A stretch of DNA of 6,310 bases from a virus. Its lineage: Duplodnaviria; Heunggongvirae; Uroviricota; Caudoviricetes. The stretch is from the IMG/VR virus record IMGVR_UViG_2690316285_000013, one strand, 5' to 3'. The position numbers and the translations under genes were made by a program. Of the stretch, positions 1 through 6,310 are shown piece after piece. Below the pieces are notes generated by a model. That model saw only the letters and a program-made list of their open reading frames with translations, was not told the DNA's origin and searched no databases. How positions within the stretch are numbered: position 1 is the stretch's first letter; each line of letters starts with the position of its first letter.

Positions 1-31
1 AAAACACTATCAATAAGTTGGAGTCATTACC
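1..31 (+). mobile_element. IS1 right terminus (last 31 bp including the terminal inverted repeat); the element body lies left of the window
   Basis: Positions 1-31 (AAAACACTATCAATAAGTTGGAGTCATTACC) match the 3' end of IS1 as I recall it. The boundary is ambiguous by 1-2 bp because the flank continues with CC. No transposase ORF is inside the window. Confidence 0.7.
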
Positions 32-131
32 CCAATTTTTTACGTACGTAAACCACTAAATGATATTTGCGAGAATGCTACCGAGTATTGAAAACACCAC
101 TACAAATACATAAGCAAATCCCAACAAATAA

Positions 132-774
132 CCAACAAATAATTTCCAGTGTTATTTTTAGCCGGTTTAAATTGAACCTTCAAATTATAGAGCACTTATA
201 AATAACAGCCGTTAATATAAATTGGCTAATAGATTTATTTTTATTCAGCCAAGAGCCATGAATAGGATTCGATAGAAAAAAGTTCAGATAAAAATAGAGA
301 TCTACTTCACAAATCAAACGAGAAACCAAAACTTACATCTTGAAATAATCACATTGATTAGATGAATATTTATCGCGCAGTGACATCATTTTTTAATAAT
401 AGTTCAAAAAAAGGGCTCACGATGAAAAAATTAACAGTGGCAATTTCTGCTGTAGCTGCATCAGTACTGATGGCGATGTCTGCTCAGGCAGCTGAAATTT
501 ATAATAAAGACAGTAACAAGCTGGATCTGTACGGGAAAGTTAATGCTAAGCACTACTTCTCCTCTAATGATGCAGATGATGGTGATACTACTTATGCCCG
601 TCTTGGCTTCAAAGGTGAAACCCAAATCAACGATCAACTGACTGGTTTCGGTCAGTGGGAATATGAATTCAAAGGCAACCGCGCTGAATCTCAAGGTTCC
701 TCCAAAGATAAAACCCGTCTTGCCTTCGCTGGCCTGAAATTCGGTGACTACGGCTCCATCGATTACGGCCGTAA
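132..774 (+). repeat. Copy A of a 643-bp perfect direct repeat (porin upstream region plus the first 353 nt of the porin CDS)
   Basis: Base-by-base comparison shows 132-774 is identical to 1671-2313 (offset 1539). Copy A ends at the N-run, so its true extent is unknown. Confidence 0.9.
422..774 (+). pseudogene. 5' fragment (118 codons) of the NmpC/OmpD-family porin gene, interrupted by the N-run
   Basis: Same ATG, ribosome-binding site (AAGGG) and signal peptide ([25 protein letters not shown]) as the intact copy at 1961. The reading frame runs into N at 775, and the sequence after the N-run (1140 onward) does not match the porin 3' region. It may be a truncated copy or an assembly artefact. 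Confidence 0.45.
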
Positions 775-1139
775 NNNNNNNNNNNNNNNNNNNNNNNNNN
801 NNNNNNNNNNNNNNNNNNNNNNNNNNNNNNNNNNNNNNNNNNNNNNNNNNNNNNNNNNNNNNNNNNNNNNNNNNNNNNNNNNNNNNNNNNNNNNNNNNNN
901 NNNNNNNNNNNNNNNNNNNNNNNNNNNNNNNNNNNNNNNNNNNNNNNNNNNNNNNNNNNNNNNNNNNNNNNNNNNNNNNNNNNNNNNNNNNNNNNNNNNN
1001 NNNNNNNNNNNNNNNNNNNNNNNNNNNNNNNNNNNNNNNNNNNNNNNNNNNNNNNNNNNNNNNNNNNNNNNNNNNNNNNNNNNNNNNNNNNNNNNNNNNN
1101 NNNNNNNNNNNNNNNNNNNNNNNNNNNNNNNNNNNNNNN
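775..1139. other. Run of 365 undetermined bases (N): an assembly gap or masked sequence
   Basis: Directly visible. ORFs in the track that cross it (X residues) are not interpretable. Confidence 0.95.
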
Positions 1140-1226
1140 CGGATTGTTCAGGCTCCAATAGGTTGAGTATGCCGTATTTATTTTCCAAAATAAAAATCGA
1201 TGCTGTTGCTCCTTCATAAAATACTT

Positions 1227-1669
1227 TTACTCTCTGGACGCTTTTCTTAGCTCTCTTGGTGTTATCTTAAAACGATTATGGAACCTTTCAGTAAAACGAG
1301 AAGGACACTTGTAACCATTTTCCCTGGCAATCTCGCTGATGGGTTTTACTGTCGTTTGTATAGCAGACAACGCATTATTTAACCTCACGTCGTCCAATAT
1401 ACTTTGAAAACTTACTCCCTCGCTTGCCAGACGGCGATGCAATGTGGAAACAGAAATGTAGAGATATCTCGCTACCTTGTTTGCTGTCCATTTTGTTCCA
1501 GGTTCGGATAGCATTAGGTTATAACAACGACTTATTAATGATTGTTTACTATCTGATAAAAGTAAACAATTAACATGATGTGCTCCTAATGAAAGTAGAA
1601 CGCCCATTGCTAAGTGTTCCTGAATTTGCGTTGAGAAGCCTCGGGAAATAGATGTTTTTAGTTGCTCCC
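1227..1669 (-). pseudogene. 3' fragment of an AraC/XylS-family transcriptional regulator gene (C-terminal helix-turn-helix domain); the 5' part is missing at the junction at 1670
   Basis: The minus-strand translation (...[83 protein letters not shown]...) has the typical two-HTH AraC C-terminal signature. The frame stays open upstream of the listed Met all the way to the N at 1670 (…[23 protein letters not shown]…), so the gene is truncated by the junction and has no real start. It may be a ybcM-like prophage regulator, but I cannot confirm identity from memory. Confidence 0.6.
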
Positions 1670-1670
1670 N

Positions 1671-3180: not shown

Positions 3181-3214
3181 GGGGCGTTGCAACGCCCCAT
3201 TTTTAATAATTTTT
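3181..3214 (+). terminator. Rho-independent terminator (GC-rich palindrome GGGGCGTTGCAACGCCCC followed by ATTTTTAATAATTTTT)
   Basis: GC-rich hairpin followed by a T-rich tract on the plus strand, between the convergent porin (stop 3043) and Q (stop 3232). The T-run favours plus-strand termination of the porin transcript. Confidence 0.5.
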
Positions 3215-3231
3215 AGTAAACAATTGGCATA

Positions 3232-3615
3232 TTAATTAGAGTTATTAACAACGATATCCATCTCTAACCGGATATCTAATGCCATTAACATCCCTTCAAT
3301 TATGCCCTCAGCCTTCTGTAACCTTTTCCCGATATAACCATCAGAGCAGCAATGCTTACCTGCCAGTGACATGAATGTCATACCGACTACATAATAATCT
3401 ACTAATAAATCGTGCAAATCGCTGTTGTTCTTTTTCAGACGGGCCATGCACCCGCAAATAATCATCGCGTCATCGTCACAACATTGCGGGCGAGATTTTA
3501 CTTTTGAAGTAATTAATCCCTTAAAACCGGCGGCAATGGACGACCAGGTCACATCTTCATGATTATTAGCCGCCCACGCTCCCCAACGCTCAAGAACCAT
3601 CTGAATATCACGCAT
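3232..3615 (-). CDS. quuD: Lambdoid late-gene antiterminator Q (127 aa)
   Basis: The translation ([31 protein letters not shown]...[18 protein letters not shown]...) matches the DLP12/phage-82-type Q family as I recall it. ATG at 3615 with GGAG 8 nt upstream. The ORF-track start at 3630 uses TTG with no ribosome-binding site and is rejected. Confidence 0.8.
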
Positions 3616-3700: not shown

Positions 3701-3841
3701 TCATACTCCTGCTCCTGTCAGGGTTTTGGCGTAATTCTTCAGTATTCGGTAATCGGTCAAAACAGAACCGGGGAAACGATATAAGCGCAGATGCCCCCAG
3801 CGGTGGCGAAGAAGTTCTGCCATATAAAACTCAAACATCAT
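3701..3841 (-). CDS. ylcG: Small 46-aa protein, YlcG-like, translationally coupled to rusA (ATGA overlap)
   Basis: Minus-strand [49 protein letters not shown], which I translated by hand. Its start ATG (3841-3839) overlaps the rusA stop (3840-3838). The size and position between rusA and Q match ylcG of DLP12, but identity is not verified. It is not in the supplied ORF track. Confidence 0.4.
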
Positions 3842-4200
3842 TCATTCCCCATTTCGGTGATGGTCAGTTCCAGCCTCCCACCTTTGGTAACAGGCATCTT
3901 CACAACGCGGTAATCAACGACCTGAGCATCATCCAGCCAGAAACCTGCTTTGGTGAGTGCGTCAAAAGCGGCTTTTTGCAGATTATCCAGGTCACGGCGA
4001 CGGCGATCCGGCATGTGGCACTCAATACGGATTTTCACTGGCATAGCCAGGCCGATATCCAGCATTGCGTTTTTAATGATTCGGGTGACGTTATCGCGGT
4101 ATGCCTGCCCTTCTGCGCTGATGTGTGTGCGCCCGCGATTATGGCGGTAATAGCGGTTATTGCTCGGAGGCCAGGGTAATGTGATGCTGTAGGTATTCAC
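3838..4200 (-). CDS. rusA: RusA Holliday-junction resolvase (120 aa)
   Basis: [23 protein letters not shown]... and the acidic catalytic region [18 protein letters not shown]...WLDDAQV match RusA. The start codon is GTG at 4200-4198, overlapping the ybcO stop. Confidence 0.85.
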
Positions 4201-4487
4201 GCCTTAATAACCCCCTCTTTCAGCCAGATAACCTGCGTTCTCGCCATACCTTCCAGCGCGCATTCTTTTGCATACTCAGCATCGACAAAATATGTGCGGC
4301 GGTCGATTTCGTCGTGACAGGCAGAACATGCAATGGTGGCAATCAGGTCTGGCGGTTTGATACCGGTACCGCACAATCCAGCCAGCCGGATATGTGCCAG
4401 TACTGACGTTTCAGGATTGCCATTACATACGCCAGGGATTCTTACCTGGCATTCCCGACCACGCGCTGCTTTTCTCAAATCAGCCAT
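4197..4487 (-). CDS. ybcO: YbcO-like Cys-rich protein (DUF1364; putative prophage nuclease), 96 aa
   Basis: ATG at 4487 preceded by AGGAGG (plus-strand TCCTCC at 4491-4496). The protein [23 protein letters not shown]...CSACHDEID is Cys-rich. The ORF-track start at 4526 is a 13-codon upstream extension and is rejected. The start overlaps the ninE stop by 8 nt. Confidence 0.7.
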
Positions 4488-4650
4488 GATTCCTCCTTGC
4501 TGCCAGTCGCAACCATTTTTTATCAACCAGGCTAGCGGTATATCCGAGCAGTGTTGGTATTTCGGATGGCTTCAGCTCAGGCTTACGCTTACGACGATTT
4601 GATACTCTGTAGATGTGCCCGTTCATGACACGAATAAGCGGTGTAGCCAT
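4480..4650 (-). CDS. ninE: NinE-like small protein (56 aa)
   Basis: Hand-translated minus-strand [59 protein letters not shown]. Its ATG (4650-4648) overlaps the ninB stop (TAATG), and its position between ninB and ybcO matches lambdoid nin regions. It is not in the supplied ORF track. Confidence 0.6.
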   Translation of the reverse strand: MATPLIRVMNGHIYRVSNRRKRKPELKPSEIPTLLGYTASLVDKKWLRLAARRNHG

Positions 4651-5105
4651 TACGCCTCCTGCTTATCGCGCAGCTGCTGGTATTCACAGCTCTGCGGAAT
4701 TGTCAGGTGGCAGCCGATATTCATCGCCCAGGCTTCGACTTTGCACAGGAAGATGTACATCTCGCCGGTTTCCAGCTCTGACGTATGGCGGAGGGATTGG
4801 ACGGTGGTGACCTCGCCGGACACGACATCTACACGGTCTTTGCTTTCGTAGCCGAGATAGGTGTGCTTCATCGCGTCTTTGACCCACTCAGGCGTAGCGA
4901 AGGTCTTGCCGCGGGCGATGAGATATTCGCTGATCTCCGTGTACCACATGTGGCTGAGCGCGTTCTGCGACAGGCTGCGCTTCTCGCGCCACGGCTTAAC
5001 CTGCAGGCGTAAGCATTGCCCGGCATCCAGCAATGGCTGAATCTGCTGGCCGATGGCCGCGAAGTTACCGCGATGGAGTTTGATGCCGTCTACTGGCAGA
5101 GTCAT
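4650..5105 (-). CDS. ninB: NinB/Orf-family recombination mediator (151 aa; YbcN-like)
   Basis: ATG at 5105 with GGGAGG upstream. Length and motifs (RSLSQNALSHMWYTEISEYL) are consistent with the lambda NinB family. It is the first long gene of the minus-strand operon. Confidence 0.8.
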   Translation of the reverse strand: MTLPVDGIKLHRGNFAAIGQQIQPLLDAGQCLRLQVKPWREKRSLSQNALSHMWYTEISEYLIARGKTFATPEWVKDAMKHTYLGYESKDRVDVVSGEVTTVQSLRHTSELETGEMYIFLCKVEAWAMNIGCHLTIPQSCEYQQLRDKQEA

Positions 5106-5197
5106 ACGGCCTCCCTAACGGAAACCGCAGAATGCAGAAAATCGCAGGTGCATTTCTGCATCTGTGACAAGGTGATGAGTTCAGATTGTGGTCGCAT
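5102..5197 (-). CDS. Small 31-aa ORF, translationally coupled to ninB (ATGA overlap); possibly ylcH-like
   Basis: Hand-translated MRPQSELITLSQMQKCTCDFLHSAVSVREAV. It has an AAGGGGA ribosome-binding site 6 nt upstream, and its stop overlaps the ninB ATG. It is very short, so this is a low-confidence call. Confidence 0.3.
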   Translation of the reverse strand: MRPQSELITLSQMQKCTCDFLHSAVSVREAV

Positions 5198-5216
5198 TTA
5201 AGTCCCCTTAAATGCG
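5132..5216. promoter_or_regulatory. Two inverted repeats upstream of ninB (ATGCAGAAA-12 bp-TTTCTGCAT at 5132-5161; CGCATTTAA-GTCCCC-TTAAATGCG at 5193-5216)
   Basis: Perfect 9-bp arms seen directly. The second repeat encloses the ribosome-binding site of the small ORF. Candidate roles are operator, RNA structure or an early-operon terminator of the tR2 type, with no clean U-tract. Confidence 0.3.
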
Positions 5217-5369
5217 CAGAAGTCACCGGAGTTGTTCAGGCTCCGATGAGAGGATTATGGCGGATTGATTACGATAAATCAAAACTATCTTGAAGCCAAA
5301 ACAGTGATCTTCGCTTTAAAAACCTTGTATACTTTCACCTAATCACAGCCAGAACTATGGATCTAACCA

Positions 5370-5747
5370 ATGACCAACAAAGAAAACAAAGATAAATATA
5401 TTAACAAGTTCAAGAAAGAGCTTTCAAAATATATACAACCAACTGCTGGAGTGGACATTCAATTATTTAACTCTAAGGATGGTGGTGGTGTAATTAAAGC
5501 CACTTTGAATAGAAGTGGAAAAAGAAAATCATCTATTGCTGGTAATTTTACTAAATTAGGTGAGGCAATTACCTCGAGTGGGCAGAGGGTTTTTGGTGGT
5601 GATCTATCAAATGTGAATTTTTACGGAACAAATACGATTTTTGATGGAGATACAATATTTTTAATTAAATCACCTGATTCAGAGGAGTGGTCATCACAAA
5701 AAGCTTCCAAAGACGTAGAGGGCATCGTATTTGGAGGGAAAAAATGA
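5370..5747 (+). CDS. Hypothetical hydrophilic protein, 125 aa, Lys- and Gly-rich, no signal peptide or transmembrane segment; first gene of an AT-rich two-gene cassette
   Basis: ORF from ATG 5370 to TGA 5745-5747, with an in-frame stop 2 codons upstream, so it is not a fragment of a longer frame. The ribosome-binding site is weak (GGA about 9 nt upstream). Base composition is much more AT-rich than the adjacent nin genes. I recognise no family. Confidence 0.55.
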   Translation: MTNKENKDKYINKFKKELSKYIQPTAGVDIQLFNSKDGGGVIKATLNRSGKRKSSIAGNFTKLGEAITSSGQRVFGGDLSNVNFYGTNTIFDGDTIFLIKSPDSEEWSSQKASKDVEGIVFGGKK

Positions 5748-6172
5748 TTAACATTACTACTAAGGATGGCACTCAAGTCAGTGGTGAAGTAAGAGATCTA
5801 GTAATTCTTCTTGAAACTGATGGAAAAACGGTGTCTGATTATTTGCAGCCAATCCCTCCCAAAAAAGATACACACTGGAGCATGATTTTCATTCCGGTAG
5901 CAATTTATATACTACTTAATCTTGTATACATTATTGCTCACCCATTATTTCCTGAAAAATATCTAAAAACATCAACATCTATATTTCTATTCATTTCCTT
6001 CATATTAAGTGCAATAGTAGCATATTTTGTTTTCCATAAGCATAAATCTGCCACTCTATCCATATGCAGCTTAGTGTTCTTAGTGTTAATTGTAGGTGCT
6101 AACGTAGGGTTTATCAGTTACAGCGACCTAACACAAAAAGCGACGCAAAAATTAGATAGTTTGTCTAAATAA
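5744..6172 (+). CDS. Hypothetical small integral membrane protein, 142 aa: about 45-aa hydrophilic N-terminal domain followed by three predicted transmembrane helices and a charged C-terminal tail
   Basis: ATG at 5744 overlaps the upstream stop (ATGA), with a strong GGAGGG ribosome-binding site 5 nt upstream. Hydrophobic stretches: WSMIFIPVAIYILLNLVYIIAHPLF, TSIFLFISFILSAIVAYFVF, LSICSLVFLVLIVGANVGFISY. The ORF-track start at 5687 is a non-ATG extension inside the upstream gene and is rejected. Confidence 0.6.
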   Translation: MINITTKDGTQVSGEVRDLVILLETDGKTVSDYLQPIPPKKDTHWSMIFIPVAIYILLNLVYIIAHPLFPEKYLKTSTSIFLFISFILSAIVAYFVFHKHKSATLSICSLVFLVLIVGANVGFISYSDLTQKATQKLDSLSK

Positions 6173-6279
6173 TTATGTTGCCATGCGAAGTATGCATGGC
6201 TGCATGTCTGCCTTCCATTTAAAATGGGCTAAGACCTATAACCCTAAATATTATTCTTTATTATCTTCTTTACCACTTC

Positions 6280-6310
6280 GGTGATGCTGCCAACTTACTG
6301 ATTTAGTGTA
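6280..6310 (+). mobile_element. IS1 left terminus (first 31 bp including the terminal inverted repeat); the element continues right of the window
   Basis: GGTGATGCTGCCAACTTACTGATTTAGTGTA matches the IS1 left end as I recall it. It is in the same orientation as the IS1 end at 1-31. Confidence 0.7.

What the first reader, a model, noticed from the sequence alone, without database searches (positions are those of the whole stretch)
5226..5369. Composition and homology breakpoint upstream of ninB marks the left junction of the AT-rich insertion
The sequence 5226-5290 (CGGAGTTGTTCAGGCTCCGATGAGAGG...) is a diverged homologue, roughly 65-70% identical by eye, of the 3' flank of the AraC-family fragment at 1140-1200 (CGGATTGTTCAGGCTCCAATAGGTTGAG...). 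In the 1140 block that flank follows the stop codon of an AraC-type gene. At the equivalent place here there is no AraC reading frame on the minus strand, and the sequence becomes AT-rich and carries the two novel plus-strand ORFs. This suggests the regulator normally found upstream of ninB has been replaced by foreign DNA, with a junction around 5290-5330. A possible promoter for the cassette lies here (TGTATACT at 5326-5333, extended -10-like).
Basis: partly seen in the sequence, partly recalled or inferred. Interest (0 to 1): 0.45.

Follow-up and report, generated by a model that had tools for sequence, protein, structure and literature searches.

The report
Prophage cargo joint beside nin-operon leader
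The interval is a real joint in a lambda-like prophage where a rare AT-rich two-gene cargo cassette abuts a widely conserved promoter-plus-structured-leader that heads the nin (ybcN to Q) operon; the joint is ordinary phage mosaicism, but the leader RNA appears undescribed.

Summary

- **Homology.** 5227-5270 is homologous to 1140-1182. Both are copies of one conserved module, not "the 3' flank of AraC".
- **Composition.** GC falls from 0.54-0.60 to 0.33-0.36 across the interval.
- **Joint.** Homology to K-12 DLP12 and phage 82 stops exactly at 5284/5285.

**The module (5284 down to 5106, minus strand).** It comprises:
- a sigma-70-like promoter, TTGATT-17-CATAAT, within a TTGATT-N6-AATCAA palindrome;
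- hairpin 1, with a covarying stem and a conserved UGAAC loop;
- the conserved tail GACUUCUGCGC;
- hairpin 2, which holds the ribosome-binding site and start codon of a 31-aa ylcH-like ORF;
- ybcN.

In about 116 distinct phage copies the sequence 5' of TTGATT is unrelated (73 flank types). Published Term-seq data place an RNA 3' end 7 nt after hairpin 1 in K-12, so the module probably acts as promoter plus attenuator. Lambda has terminator tR2 at the same position.

**The cargo (5285 to about 6250).** It is an antisense two-gene cassette (125 aa soluble, 142 aa three-helix membrane protein). It lies between P and ybcN in 46 of 5,426 E. coli genomes. The pair is conserved in distant bacteria, and its function is unknown.

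ybcM is simply another cargo of this slot, not the normal occupant.

The parts
5265..5284 (-). 5' edge of the conserved nin-operon module. It holds the -35 hexamer TTGATT (5282->5277) inside the palindrome TTGATT-N6-AATCAA (5282->5265). The mosaic joint lies between 5284 and 5285.
   Evidence: Promoter scan. Phage 82 record X92588 annotates the same hexamers as putative -35/-10. Homology to K-12 and phage 82 ends at 5284. Information content drops from more than 1.2 bits to about 0.1 bit just 5' of TTGATT in 116 distinct copies. The palindrome is kept through changes on both halves in phi80 (TTGATA..TATCAA) and in E2863 (TTTATTTT..AAAATAAA).
5254..5259 (-). -10 hexamer CATAAT, 17 bp from the -35.
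   Evidence: Variant modules carry other -10-like elements (TGTTATAAT, TACAAT, CATACT) at the same distance from hairpin 1.
5223..5249 (-). Hairpin 1 of the leader: UCAUCGGAG / loop CCUGAACAA / CUCCGGUGA. Proposed attenuator stem.
   Evidence: RNA fold z = -4.7 for the whole leader. Seven of its 10 pairs show compensatory changes and 93.5% of cells are paired; for both hairpins together 94.0% are paired, against 26-38% when the partner column is slid. RNAalifold predicts it independently. U-G and G-U wobbles are common, which fits only this strand.
5214..5222 (-). Conserved single-stranded tail (GA)CUUCUGCGC. The RNA 3' end predicted from K-12 data falls at 5217/5216.
   Evidence: Nearly invariant in the unbiased set. 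Term-seq 3' ends at K-12 572349/572350 fall within ...GGUGACUUCUG^C (PMC7815308, supplementary files 1 and 3). Coordinates were mapped.
5193..5216 (-). Hairpin 2: CGCAUUUAAG-GGGA-CUUAAAUGCG. It places the Shine-Dalgarno-like GGGGA in the loop and the ylcH-like AUG (5197-5195) in the 3' arm.
   Evidence: Perfect 10-nt inverted repeat. It corresponds to 'IR4' in the phi80 record. By my reading, seven different stem versions all pair and the GGGA loop is constant.
5102..5197 (-). ylcH-like 31-aa upstream ORF. Its stop overlaps the ybcN start (ATGA).
   Evidence: ORF list. It is the counterpart of K-12 ylcH and phage 82 orf33. By my reading, the reading frame is kept in three diverged versions, with indels in multiples of three. 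No Pfam, PHROG or NCBIfam hit.
4650..5105 (-). ybcN (NinB/Orf family), the first long gene of the nin operon.
   Evidence: Pfam NinB PF05772 E=3.6e-5. Annotated 'YbcN family protein' in E. coli A7.
5285..5369 (+). Cassette-specific 5' region, including the -10-like TATACT at 5328-5333. It is a possible but unproven promoter, divergent from the nin promoter.
   Evidence: No homology to K-12, phage 82 or the phage collection beyond about 5284-5291. Not reported by the promoter scan. Not conserved at nucleotide level in the diverged cassette family; a TATAGT sits at a similar distance there.
5370..5747 (+). Cassette ORF1, a 125-aa soluble protein of unknown function.
   Evidence: PHROG 18061, E 9e-85, unknown function. 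No hit in Pfam, PADLOC, NCBIfam or PDB. 111 distant relatives of about 125 aa in a profile search. AF2 model is poor, pLDDT 58.
5744..6172 (+). Cassette ORF2, 142 aa: a small N-terminal domain plus three predicted membrane helices. Its start overlaps the ORF1 stop (ATGA).
   Evidence: PHROG 16940, E 2e-96, unknown function. AF2 helices at 44-68, 71-100 and 103-141. It always follows ORF1 in Enterobacteriaceae prophages, and an architecturally similar partner follows distant ORF1 relatives.
6175..6244 (.). Convergent terminator-like region between ORF2 and P: an inverted repeat at 6175-6205 and a minus-strand hairpin plus T-run at 6244->6226.
   Evidence: Consensus matches only.
6251..6279 (-). 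Last codons of replication gene P, cut off by an insertion sequence.
   Evidence: E. coli A7 annotation transferred (P at L001 7252-7965, which is window 6251 onward). 100% match to P-bearing genomes up to 6280. Homology to phi80 gene 14 begins about 30 nt inside the P 3' end.
6280..6310 (+). Terminal inverted repeat of a multicopy insertion sequence (IS1 left end). The matching IS1 right end is at 1-31.
   Evidence: The last about 30 nt match 56,484 places in 4,339 E. coli genomes. An annotated IS1A lies in the same cassette region in strain CV839-06. The name IS1 comes from my memory of its terminal sequence.
1140..1226 (-). Decayed copy of the same module downstream of the ybcM stop. The mask of Ns begins inside hairpin 1.
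   Evidence: 100% identical to the E2863 ybcM flank. In the alignment this copy has CATACT for the -10, a 1-nt deletion in hairpin 1, and ATA in place of the ylcH ATG.
1227..1669 (-). 3' part of ybcM (AraC family), truncated at 1669.
   Evidence: tblastn gives 94% identity to K-12 YbcM residues 120-265.

Best explanation
The interval straddles the boundary between two independently inherited units of a DLP12-like lambdoid prophage.

Left of 5284, read on the minus strand, is the conserved control module of the nin operon. In order it contains:
- a sigma-70-type promoter (TTGATT, 17 bp, CATAAT) whose -35 region is part of a palindrome;
- a leader that begins with a covarying hairpin carrying a conserved UGAAC loop;
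- a conserved CUUCUGCGC tail;
- a second hairpin that encloses the ribosome-binding site and start codon of a 31-aa upstream ORF (ylcH-like);
- ybcN, translationally coupled to that ORF, followed by ninE-ybcO-rusA-ylcG-quuD.

The module most likely fires constitutively but ends most transcripts about 30 nt downstream, 7 nt past hairpin 1. That would keep the recombination genes and the Q antiterminator silent in the lysogen. It sits where lambda has terminator tR2.

Right of 5284 is one of many alternative cargoes of the slot between replication gene P and the nin operon. Here the cargo is a roughly 1-kb AT-rich cassette of two overlapping genes on the opposite strand (a small soluble protein and a small three-helix membrane protein). 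It is presumably expressed from its own promoter in the lysogen, and its function is unknown. My best guess is a membrane-acting exclusion or abortive-infection type accessory.

The similarity to 1140-1200 exists because that block is a decayed copy of the same module sitting behind a different cargo (ybcM).

Shown: the homology, the position of the joint, the variability of the flank, the covariation, and the 3' end in K-12. Inferred: promoter activity, attenuation in this window, cassette expression and cassette function.
For: - Joint: homology to K-12 DLP12 and phage 82 runs from ybcN to 5284 and stops. Phage hits end at 5283-5291.
- Context: in E. coli A7 the same sequence lies P - cassette (antisense) - YbcN - NinE - YbcO - RusA - YlcG - QuuD - OmpC.
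- Frequency: 46 of 5,426 complete E. coli genomes carry the whole stretch, while 2,778 carry the ybcN side.
- Other cargoes sit at the same joint.
- Boundary: it is sharp in 116 distinct copies, with 73 flank clusters.
- Promoter: scan hit; the same hexamers are annotated in X92588; alternative -10 elements sit at a fixed distance in variant modules, and in some phages a canonical intrinsic terminator lies directly 5' of TTGATT.
- Structure: 94% of cells paired vs 26-38% when slid; 95 compensatory cells vs 33 in shuffles (0/500); 10 of 19 pairs with double changes. RNAalifold agrees. Fold z = -4.7.
- 3' end: Term-seq ends at K-12 572349/572350, 7-8 nt after hairpin 1 (PMC7815308). That study's filter kept the site only if a transcription start lies upstream.
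- Silent operon: rusA in DLP12 needs an IS-supplied promoter (PMC4118853).
- Lambda has tR2 at the equivalent position.
- Cassette: the pair is always together and antisense in Enterobacter, Klebsiella and E. coli prophages, and paired in Pseudoalteromonas and in uncultured bacteria.
Against: - No transcription start has been mapped at the predicted site; I could not read the dRNA-seq data.
- The K-12 3' end has a low read count and could be a processing or degradation product protected by the hairpin.
- The tail CUUCUG is a poor U-tract for an intrinsic terminator.
- The Term-seq data are from K-12, whose hairpin 2 and ylcH version differ from the window's.
- Nothing explains why the hairpin-1 loop is conserved.
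- The first viral scan fixed the loop and tail by design. The second was anchored in the ylcH core and so sampled only modules that keep that core.
- The cassette has no mapped promoter, no recognisable domain, and low-confidence structure models.
Confidence: 0.7

Rival explanations
1. One reading: an AraC-type regulator (ybcM) is the ancestral neighbour of ninB/ybcN, and it was deleted and replaced here by an insertion of foreign AT-rich DNA.
For: K-12 DLP12 and many E. coli genomes have ybcM directly upstream of the module. The cassette is AT-rich and rare, in 46 of 5,426 genomes.
Against: ybcM is itself cargo, in a block with emrE, ybcK and ybcL. Functional phages with the same module carry quite different neighbours. 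There are 73 flank types among 116 copies. In intact prophages the cassette lies directly between P and the module with no AraC remnant.
Confidence: 0.1
2. The inverted repeats are DNA operators for a phage or host regulator, as the phage 82 record suggests ('possible regulator-binding site'), and not RNA structures.
For: X92588 annotates the hairpin-1 repeat as a possible regulator-binding site. The TTGATT-N6-AATCAA palindrome over the -35 looks like an operator and keeps its symmetry in variants.
Against: The stems of hairpin 1 are wholly different in different phages while pairing is kept. U-G and G-U wobbles are frequent, and these would be A-C mismatches on the other strand. The loop is conserved rather than the arms. 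An RNA 3' end maps 7 nt after the stem in K-12. The -35 palindrome may still be an operator; that part is not excluded.
Confidence: 0.15
3. The module has no promoter of its own. Hairpin 1 plus its tail is simply the tR2-equivalent terminator for transcripts coming from PR, and the -35/-10-like hexamers are conserved for another reason.
For: It occupies the same position as lambda tR2. The 3' end lies at the canonical distance from the stem. The DLP12 operon is silent.
Against: Both hexamers and their 17-bp spacing are conserved while the spacer varies. Unrelated variants supply a consensus extended -10 (TGTTATAAT) at the same distance. Some phages place a canonical terminator immediately upstream of TTGATT, which would make a second terminator 60 nt later redundant. 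K-12 DLP12 has no PR or replication genes upstream, yet the 3' end passed a filter that requires an upstream transcription start.
Confidence: 0.2
4. The similarity between 1140-1200 and 5226-5290 is a chance match.
For: Alone it is 34 of 44 matches, E=0.01 within a 6.3-kb self-search.
Against: Both stretches align in register with the same module in K-12, phage 82, phi80, HK639, CobraSix and 4A7, over about 180 nt for the full-length version of the 1140 block.
Confidence: 0.02

Closest known systems
Phage 82 / DLP12 orf33(ylcH)-orf151(ybcN)-rusA-Q operon upstream region (GenBank X92588; cited as reference 18 in PMC4118853)
   Same: Same module at 75% identity. The putative -35 (TTGATT), -10 (CATAAT) and inverted repeat annotated there are all present at 5223-5282.
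   Different: That record treats the repeat as a possible protein-binding site. It does not describe an RNA structure, a 3' end, or the role of the module as a recurrent mosaic boundary. The window carries the alternative hairpin 2 / ylcH version, shared with phi80, HK639 and CobraSix.
Lambda tR2, the intrinsic terminator between ren and ninB
   Same: Same genomic position, immediately upstream of the first nin gene. It also blocks transcription into nin and Q unless RNA polymerase is antiterminated (for the sequence; the function is established knowledge).
   Different: There is no sequence similarity. tR2 is a plain GC hairpin with a T-run and has no promoter, second hairpin or upstream ORF. 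The module's tail is U-poor.
Morons and the variable 'ren slot' cargo of lambdoid phages (e.g. lambda ren; DLP12 emrE-ybcK-ybcL-ybcM)
   Same: An AT-rich, autonomously oriented gene set inserted between conserved operons, present in a minority of related prophages, with a sharp boundary at a conserved regulatory sequence.
   Different: The cassette's promoter and terminator are not demonstrated. Its two proteins have no relatives of known function.
Lambda RexA/RexB (a soluble protein plus a small multi-helix membrane protein expressed in the lysogen)
   Same: Only the architecture and lifestyle: two adjacent genes, one soluble and one roughly 140-aa polytopic membrane protein, transcribed against the lytic operons of a lambdoid prophage.
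   Different: No detectable homology (no PADLOC or Pfam hits). ORF1 is 125 aa against RexA's 279 aa (from memory). ORF2 has three predicted helices rather than four. No functional data exist.
5' UTR attenuators with upstream ORFs found by Term-seq in E. coli (PMC7815308)
   Same: A 3' end inside a 5' UTR shortly upstream of a small ORF. The K-12 copy of this very site is in that study's tables.
   Different: The site is listed but not analysed there. Its mechanism (intrinsic, Rho-dependent or processing) is undetermined.

Membership tests
Lambdoid moron / variable cargo in the replication-nin slot | Lies between the replication genes (O/P) and the first nin gene of a lambdoid prophage | tested here: met
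   In E. coli A7 the order is P, cassette, YbcN. The same slot is used in Klebsiella and Enterobacter prophages. In the window P is cut by an IS at about 6280.
Lambdoid moron / variable cargo in the replication-nin slot | Present in only some otherwise related prophages, with alternative DNA at the same joint | tested here: met
   46 vs 2,778 of 5,426 genomes. Alternative cargoes. 73 flank clusters.
Lambdoid moron / variable cargo in the replication-nin slot | Base composition differs from the flanking phage genes | tested here: met
   GC 0.30-0.40 vs 0.50-0.60.
Lambdoid moron / variable cargo in the replication-nin slot | Own promoter and terminator allowing expression from the repressed prophage | tested here: inconclusive
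   There is only a -10-like TATACT with no -35, and the scan did not report it. Terminator-like repeats follow ORF2. No expression data.
   tblastn of YbcM against 5200-6310 gives best E=1.8.
Sigma-70 promoter | -35 and -10 hexamers with 16-18 bp spacing, conserved among relatives | tested here: met
   TTGATT-17-CATAAT, 9 of 12 matches. Conserved while the spacer varies. Variant -10 elements sit at the same place.
Sigma-70 promoter | A mapped transcription start | not testable with these tools
   Support is indirect only: the K-12 3' end passed a filter requiring an upstream TSS. The dRNA-seq paper is not held.
Intrinsic terminator / attenuator | Stable hairpin whose pairing is under selection | tested here: met
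Intrinsic terminator / attenuator | U-rich tract directly after the stem | tested here: not met
   The tail is ACUUCUGCGC, with 3 U in the first 7 nt. The terminator scan did not call hairpin 1.
Intrinsic terminator / attenuator | RNA 3' end 7-9 nt after the stem | tested here: met
   Met for the K-12 homologue only: Term-seq ends at 572349/572350, with the stem ending at 572342/572343. Not measured for this window.
N-utilisation (nut) site | boxA upstream of a boxB hairpin with a five-base GNRA-like loop closed by a Watson-Crick pair | tested here: not met
   The loop is 8-10 nt with a conserved UGAAC, and the positions that would close a GAACA pentaloop vary. The conserved linear element lies 3' of the hairpin, not 5'. 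The module is shared by phages with different antitermination systems (phi80 with N, HK639). The comparison with boxA/boxB consensus is from memory.
Any Rfam family | Covariance-model match | tested here: not met
   No hit at gathering score in the whole window. Only chance-level hits (E above 1.7) in 4900-5500.
Known anti-phage defence systems (PADLOC) / RexAB-like exclusion | Sequence homology of either protein to a catalogued system | tested here: not met
   No PADLOC hits at E<=1. No Pfam hit above threshold, and no NCBIfam or PDB hit.

The most novel reading that the evidence does not exclude
The roughly 30-nt hairpin RNA made from the nin promoter is not just an attenuator. On this reading it is a specific recognition element, carrying its conserved UGAAC loop and CUUCUGCGC tail and shared by lambdoid phages with different N, Q or put antitermination systems. 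It would be the binding site for a host or phage factor, or a small trans-acting RNA, that decides when the recombination genes and the Q antiterminator are switched on. That would make it a previously undescribed control point in the lysis-lysogeny circuit.

Separately, the two-gene cassette could be a new small membrane-acting phage-exclusion system, whose relatives occur as the same gene pair in distant bacteria.
Probability: 0.2. Interest if true: 0.6.

Novelty: new member of a known kind. Interest (0 to 1): 0.4.

Why it matters
The joint shows concretely how lambdoid prophages swap accessory genes. A short conserved regulatory module acts as the fixed edge against which dozens of unrelated cargoes are exchanged. 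This explains why unrelated genes (ybcM, an esterase, a Pol III theta homologue, this cassette) all appear 'upstream of ninB'.

The module is present in about half of complete E. coli genomes and in many Enterobacteriaceae phages. It has clear RNA covariation and a measured 3' end in K-12, yet no Rfam family and no described function. It gates rusA and the late-gene antiterminator Q, so it bears on prophage silence and induction timing.

The cassette adds a small conserved gene pair of unknown function to the list of candidates for lysogen-expressed exclusion or defence functions.

Tried and rejected
- **Rfam.** Searches of 4900-5500 (permissive) and of the whole window (gathering) found nothing real.
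- **Protein libraries.** Pfam, PADLOC, NCBIfam and PDB-sequence searches of both cassette proteins gave nothing above threshold. PHROGs only confirmed two 'unknown function' families.
- **Structure.** AF2 models were low confidence (pLDDT 58 and 68). A Foldseek search of the ORF1 model against viral structures gave no hit with E<=0.001, and I discount it. I ran no further search on such models.
- **IS1/P junction.** An exact-pattern search in representative genomes found nothing, so the source organism is not identified. A Shigella sonnei fragment is 100% identical to ORF1.
- **Badly designed scan.** My genome-collection scan with TGAACA-N7-12-GACTTCTGCGC was poorly chosen. At 17 specified bases most of the 120 rows are chance matches in unrelated phyla. 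Only 3 (Lelliottia, Enterobacter, Huaxiibacter) passed a check for the rest of the module. It says nothing about host range.
- **Loop complement.** I looked in phi80 for a sequence complementary to the hairpin-1 loop (TTGTTCAGG) as a possible kissing partner and found none.
- **boxB reading.** I considered a nut/boxB-like reading of hairpin 1 and rejected it (see membership test).
- **Transcription start data.** I could not obtain the K-12 dRNA-seq data, and the ROSE supplement has no entry.
- **Literature.** Searches for ylcH, nin-region promoters and the phi80 inverted repeats gave no description of the module beyond the GenBank annotations.
Full report
**What the window is.**

- On the minus strand it carries the DLP12/phage 82-type nin operon: quuD 3232-3615, ylcG 3701-3841, rusA 3838-4200, ybcO 4197-4487, ninE 4480-4650 and ybcN 4650-5105. 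The porin gene nmpC/ompC lies on the plus strand.
- Both ends of the window are ends of a multicopy insertion sequence. I recognise the terminal sequences as IS1.
- Bases 132-774 repeat 1671-2313 at 100% identity and are separated from the ybcM fragment by runs of N. Bases 32-774 are 99.5% identical to K-12 nmpC and its upstream region. The first 1,670 bases therefore look like a scaffold or masking artefact, and the '1140 block' cannot be assumed to sit next to the rest.

**Checking the observation.**

- The in-window match is 1140-1182 vs 5227-5270, 77% over 44 nt, E=0.01.
- It becomes secure through intermediates. Window 5004-5284 aligns without a break to K-12 DLP12 (ybcN, ylcH and the 85 nt upstream of ylcH) and to phage 82, at 75% identity, E 1e-45 to 1e-48.
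- The intact version of the 1140 block (E. coli E2863) aligns in register with the same about 180 nt.
- GC drops from 0.54-0.60 to 0.33-0.39 across the interval.
- No YbcM-like frame exists in 5200-6310.
- Homology to K-12, phage 82 and all phage records stops at 5283-5291, most often at 5284.

So the homology, the composition break and the missing AraC frame are real. The joint lies at 5284/5285.

**What lies to the right.**

- In E. coli A7 the same DNA (99.8%) sits in an intact prophage as P, then two hypothetical genes on the opposite strand, then YbcN.
- 46 of 5,426 complete E. coli genomes have the whole stretch. 2,778 have only the ybcN side.
- In the window P is cut about 30 nt from its stop by the insertion sequence. 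Relative to phi80, homology resumes about 30 nt inside the 3' end of P. The cargo therefore spans roughly 5285-6250.
- It encodes ORF1 (5370-5747, 125 aa) and ORF2 (5744-6172, 142 aa), overlapping by ATGA.
- Both belong to PHROG families of unknown function and match nothing in Pfam, PADLOC, NCBIfam or the PDB.
- ORF2 is predicted to have a small N-terminal domain and three long helices. The ORF1 model is poor and its fold search was uninformative.
- The pair is always together, always antisense to the early-right operon, and always in the replication-nin slot in diverged Klebsiella, Enterobacter and E. coli prophages. There the neighbours on both sides differ: DUF1367 instead of YbcN, and various small genes instead of P.
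- A profile search finds 111 more distant ORF1 relatives. In three contexts examined (Pseudoalteromonas, an uncultured bacterium and a metagenome contig), a 128-138-aa gene follows at once. In two of the three it has the same N-domain-plus-helices layout as ORF2, at about 20% identity.
- The cassette is thus a real, conserved, mobile gene pair of unknown function.
TATACT has the TG in the wrong register and no -35, and the scan does not report it. The upstream 85 nt are not conserved in the diverged cassette family, although a TATAGT lies at a similar distance there.

**What lies to the left: the more interesting half.**

- Read on the minus strand, 5284-5106 is a module found upstream of the first nin gene in many lambdoid phages (phage 82, DLP12, phi80, HK639, CobraSix, 4A7).
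- Two scans of the viral contig collection gave about 200 instances and 116 distinct copies. One scan was anchored on hairpin 1 and the other on the ylcH core.
- In these copies the sequence 5' of TTGATT carries about 0.1 bit per position and falls into 73 unrelated clusters. The module itself is well conserved.
- The neighbours differ from phage to phage, so this is a recurrent recombination boundary. ybcM is one cargo among many, not the normal occupant.

**Anatomy of the module** (window coordinates, minus strand):

- -35 TTGATT (5282-5277), within the palindrome TTGATT-N6-AATCAA.
- 17 bp of spacer, then -10 CATAAT (5259-5254). The phage 82 GenBank record annotates the same elements as putative signals.
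- Hairpin 1 (5249-5223).
- The tail CUUCUGCGC.
- Hairpin 2 (5216-5193).
- A 31-aa ylcH-like ORF (5197-5102) whose stop overlaps the ybcN start.

**Evidence that the hairpins are RNA structures.**

- In the scan that did not constrain hairpin 1, its stem appears in many wholly different versions that all pair. Examples are GUCGCAGUCGG/CCGGUUGCGAC, UGCUGAUGG/CCAUUGGUG and GCCGCCGG/CCGGCGG. The loop keeps UGAAC, and a -10-like element (CATAAT, TGTTATAAT, TACAAT, CATACT) stays 6-8 nt upstream.
- On 41 distinct sequences the two-hairpin structure has 94% of cells paired, against 26-38% when the partner column is slid. It has 95 cells with changes on both sides, against 33 in shuffles (0 of 500 reach it). 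Ten of 19 pairs show compensatory change.
- RNAalifold predicts the same helices.
- The frequent U-G and G-U pairs fit only the sense strand.
- Hairpin 2 occurs in seven stem versions with a constant GGGA loop and the ylcH start codon in its 3' arm. It looks like a translational gate for the upstream ORF.
- The window's leader folds far better than shuffled sequence, z = -4.7.
- No Rfam family matches.

**Function of the module.**

- A published Term-seq data set for K-12 MG1655 lists curated RNA 3' ends at 572349 and 572350 (+). These fall in ...CUCCGGUGACUUCUG^C, 7-8 nt after hairpin 1 and 19 nt before ylcH (PMC7815308, supplementary files 1 and 3; coordinates mapped).
- That study kept a 5' UTR 3' end only if a mapped transcription start lay upstream of it. 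This agrees with the predicted promoter but does not prove it.
- rusA in DLP12 is known to need an IS-supplied promoter for expression (PMC4118853).
- Lambda has the intrinsic terminator tR2 at exactly this position.
- Some phages place a canonical terminator immediately upstream of TTGATT.
- Taken together, the best reading is a promoter whose transcripts mostly end about 30 nt downstream, gating the nin-Q operon.
- Weak points: the tail is U-poor, the read counts are low, the 3' end could be a protected degradation product, and nothing yet explains the conserved loop.
- A boxB-like reading fails, because the would-be closing pair is not conserved and the linear element is on the wrong side.
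- A pure DNA-operator reading does not fit hairpin 1, but remains possible for the -35 palindrome.

**Verdict.** It is the head of the nin operon, not the tail of an AraC gene, and the regulator is not the default occupant of the slot. As a junction the finding is ordinary lambdoid mosaicism. The added value is a sharply bounded, widely distributed promoter-leader module with strong covariation and a measured 3' end, and a conserved two-gene cargo of unknown function.

Noticed in passing
window 1-1670: 132-774 is a 100% copy of 1671-2313. It is followed by a 365-nt run of N, a 530-nt ybcM fragment and a single N. Bases 32-774 are 99.5% identical to K-12 nmpC and its upstream region. This looks like a scaffold or masking artefact, so adjacency of the ybcM block to the rest is doubtful.
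   Followed up: partly
window 1-31 and 6280-6310: Both ends of the window are termini of a multicopy insertion sequence (IS1 by my recollection). The right-hand copy truncates replication gene P about 30 nt from its stop. A 100%-identical ORF1 fragment is recorded from Shigella sonnei, which would fit an IS1-rich genome.
   Followed up: partly
L010 2297-3980 (GCA_030132385.1): In one prophage a colicin-like gene and a colicin-immunity-like gene (both weak Pfam hits) sit in the same slot, between NinB and the two-gene cassette. The slot can therefore hold several cargoes at once.
   Followed up: no
L005-L014, about 4316-4400 (upstream of the DUF1367 gene): Prophages whose nin operon starts with a DUF1367 gene have a shorter leader. 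By eye it has a -10-like GATAAT, then a 4-5-bp hairpin with loop CCUGAACAA, CCUGAGCAA or UCUGGACAA, then the ribosome-binding site, with no ylcH. The UGAAC-loop hairpin may be more general than the module described.
   Followed up: partly
L041 (two matches, 10631 and 13038) and L040: Some viral contigs carry two copies of the module about 2.4 kb apart, so it can head more than one gene block in a single phage.
   Followed up: no
P0013 (ENA metagenome protein, 127 aa): Its C-terminal 50 residues are 100% identical to ORF1, joined to an N-terminal pentapeptide-repeat region. It is probably an assembly chimera or frameshift, but could be a fusion.
   Followed up: no
P0104 (447 aa): [quoted passage not shown] This is the only functional hint found for the ORF1 family.
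   Followed up: no
window 5265-5282 (minus strand): The -35 hexamer is half of a palindrome, TTGATT-N6-AATCAA. Its symmetry is kept through changes on both halves in phi80 and in the decayed E2863 copy. It is a candidate operator overlapping the promoter.
   Followed up: partly
window 3181-3198: A perfect 18-nt palindrome (GGGGCGTTGCAACGCCCC) followed by a T-run lies downstream of nmpC. The homologous K-12 site (one base different in the loop) is listed as a Term-seq 3' end at 574366(-), antisense to quuD (PMC7815308 supplementary file 1).
   Followed up: no
window 5125-5161 (minus strand, inside the ylcH-like ORF): CACAGATGCAGAAATGCACCTGCGATTTTCTGCAT is nearly invariant at nucleotide level, including third codon positions. 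It forms a 9-bp inverted repeat and two terminator-like hits, so it may have an RNA- or DNA-level role besides coding.
   Followed up: no
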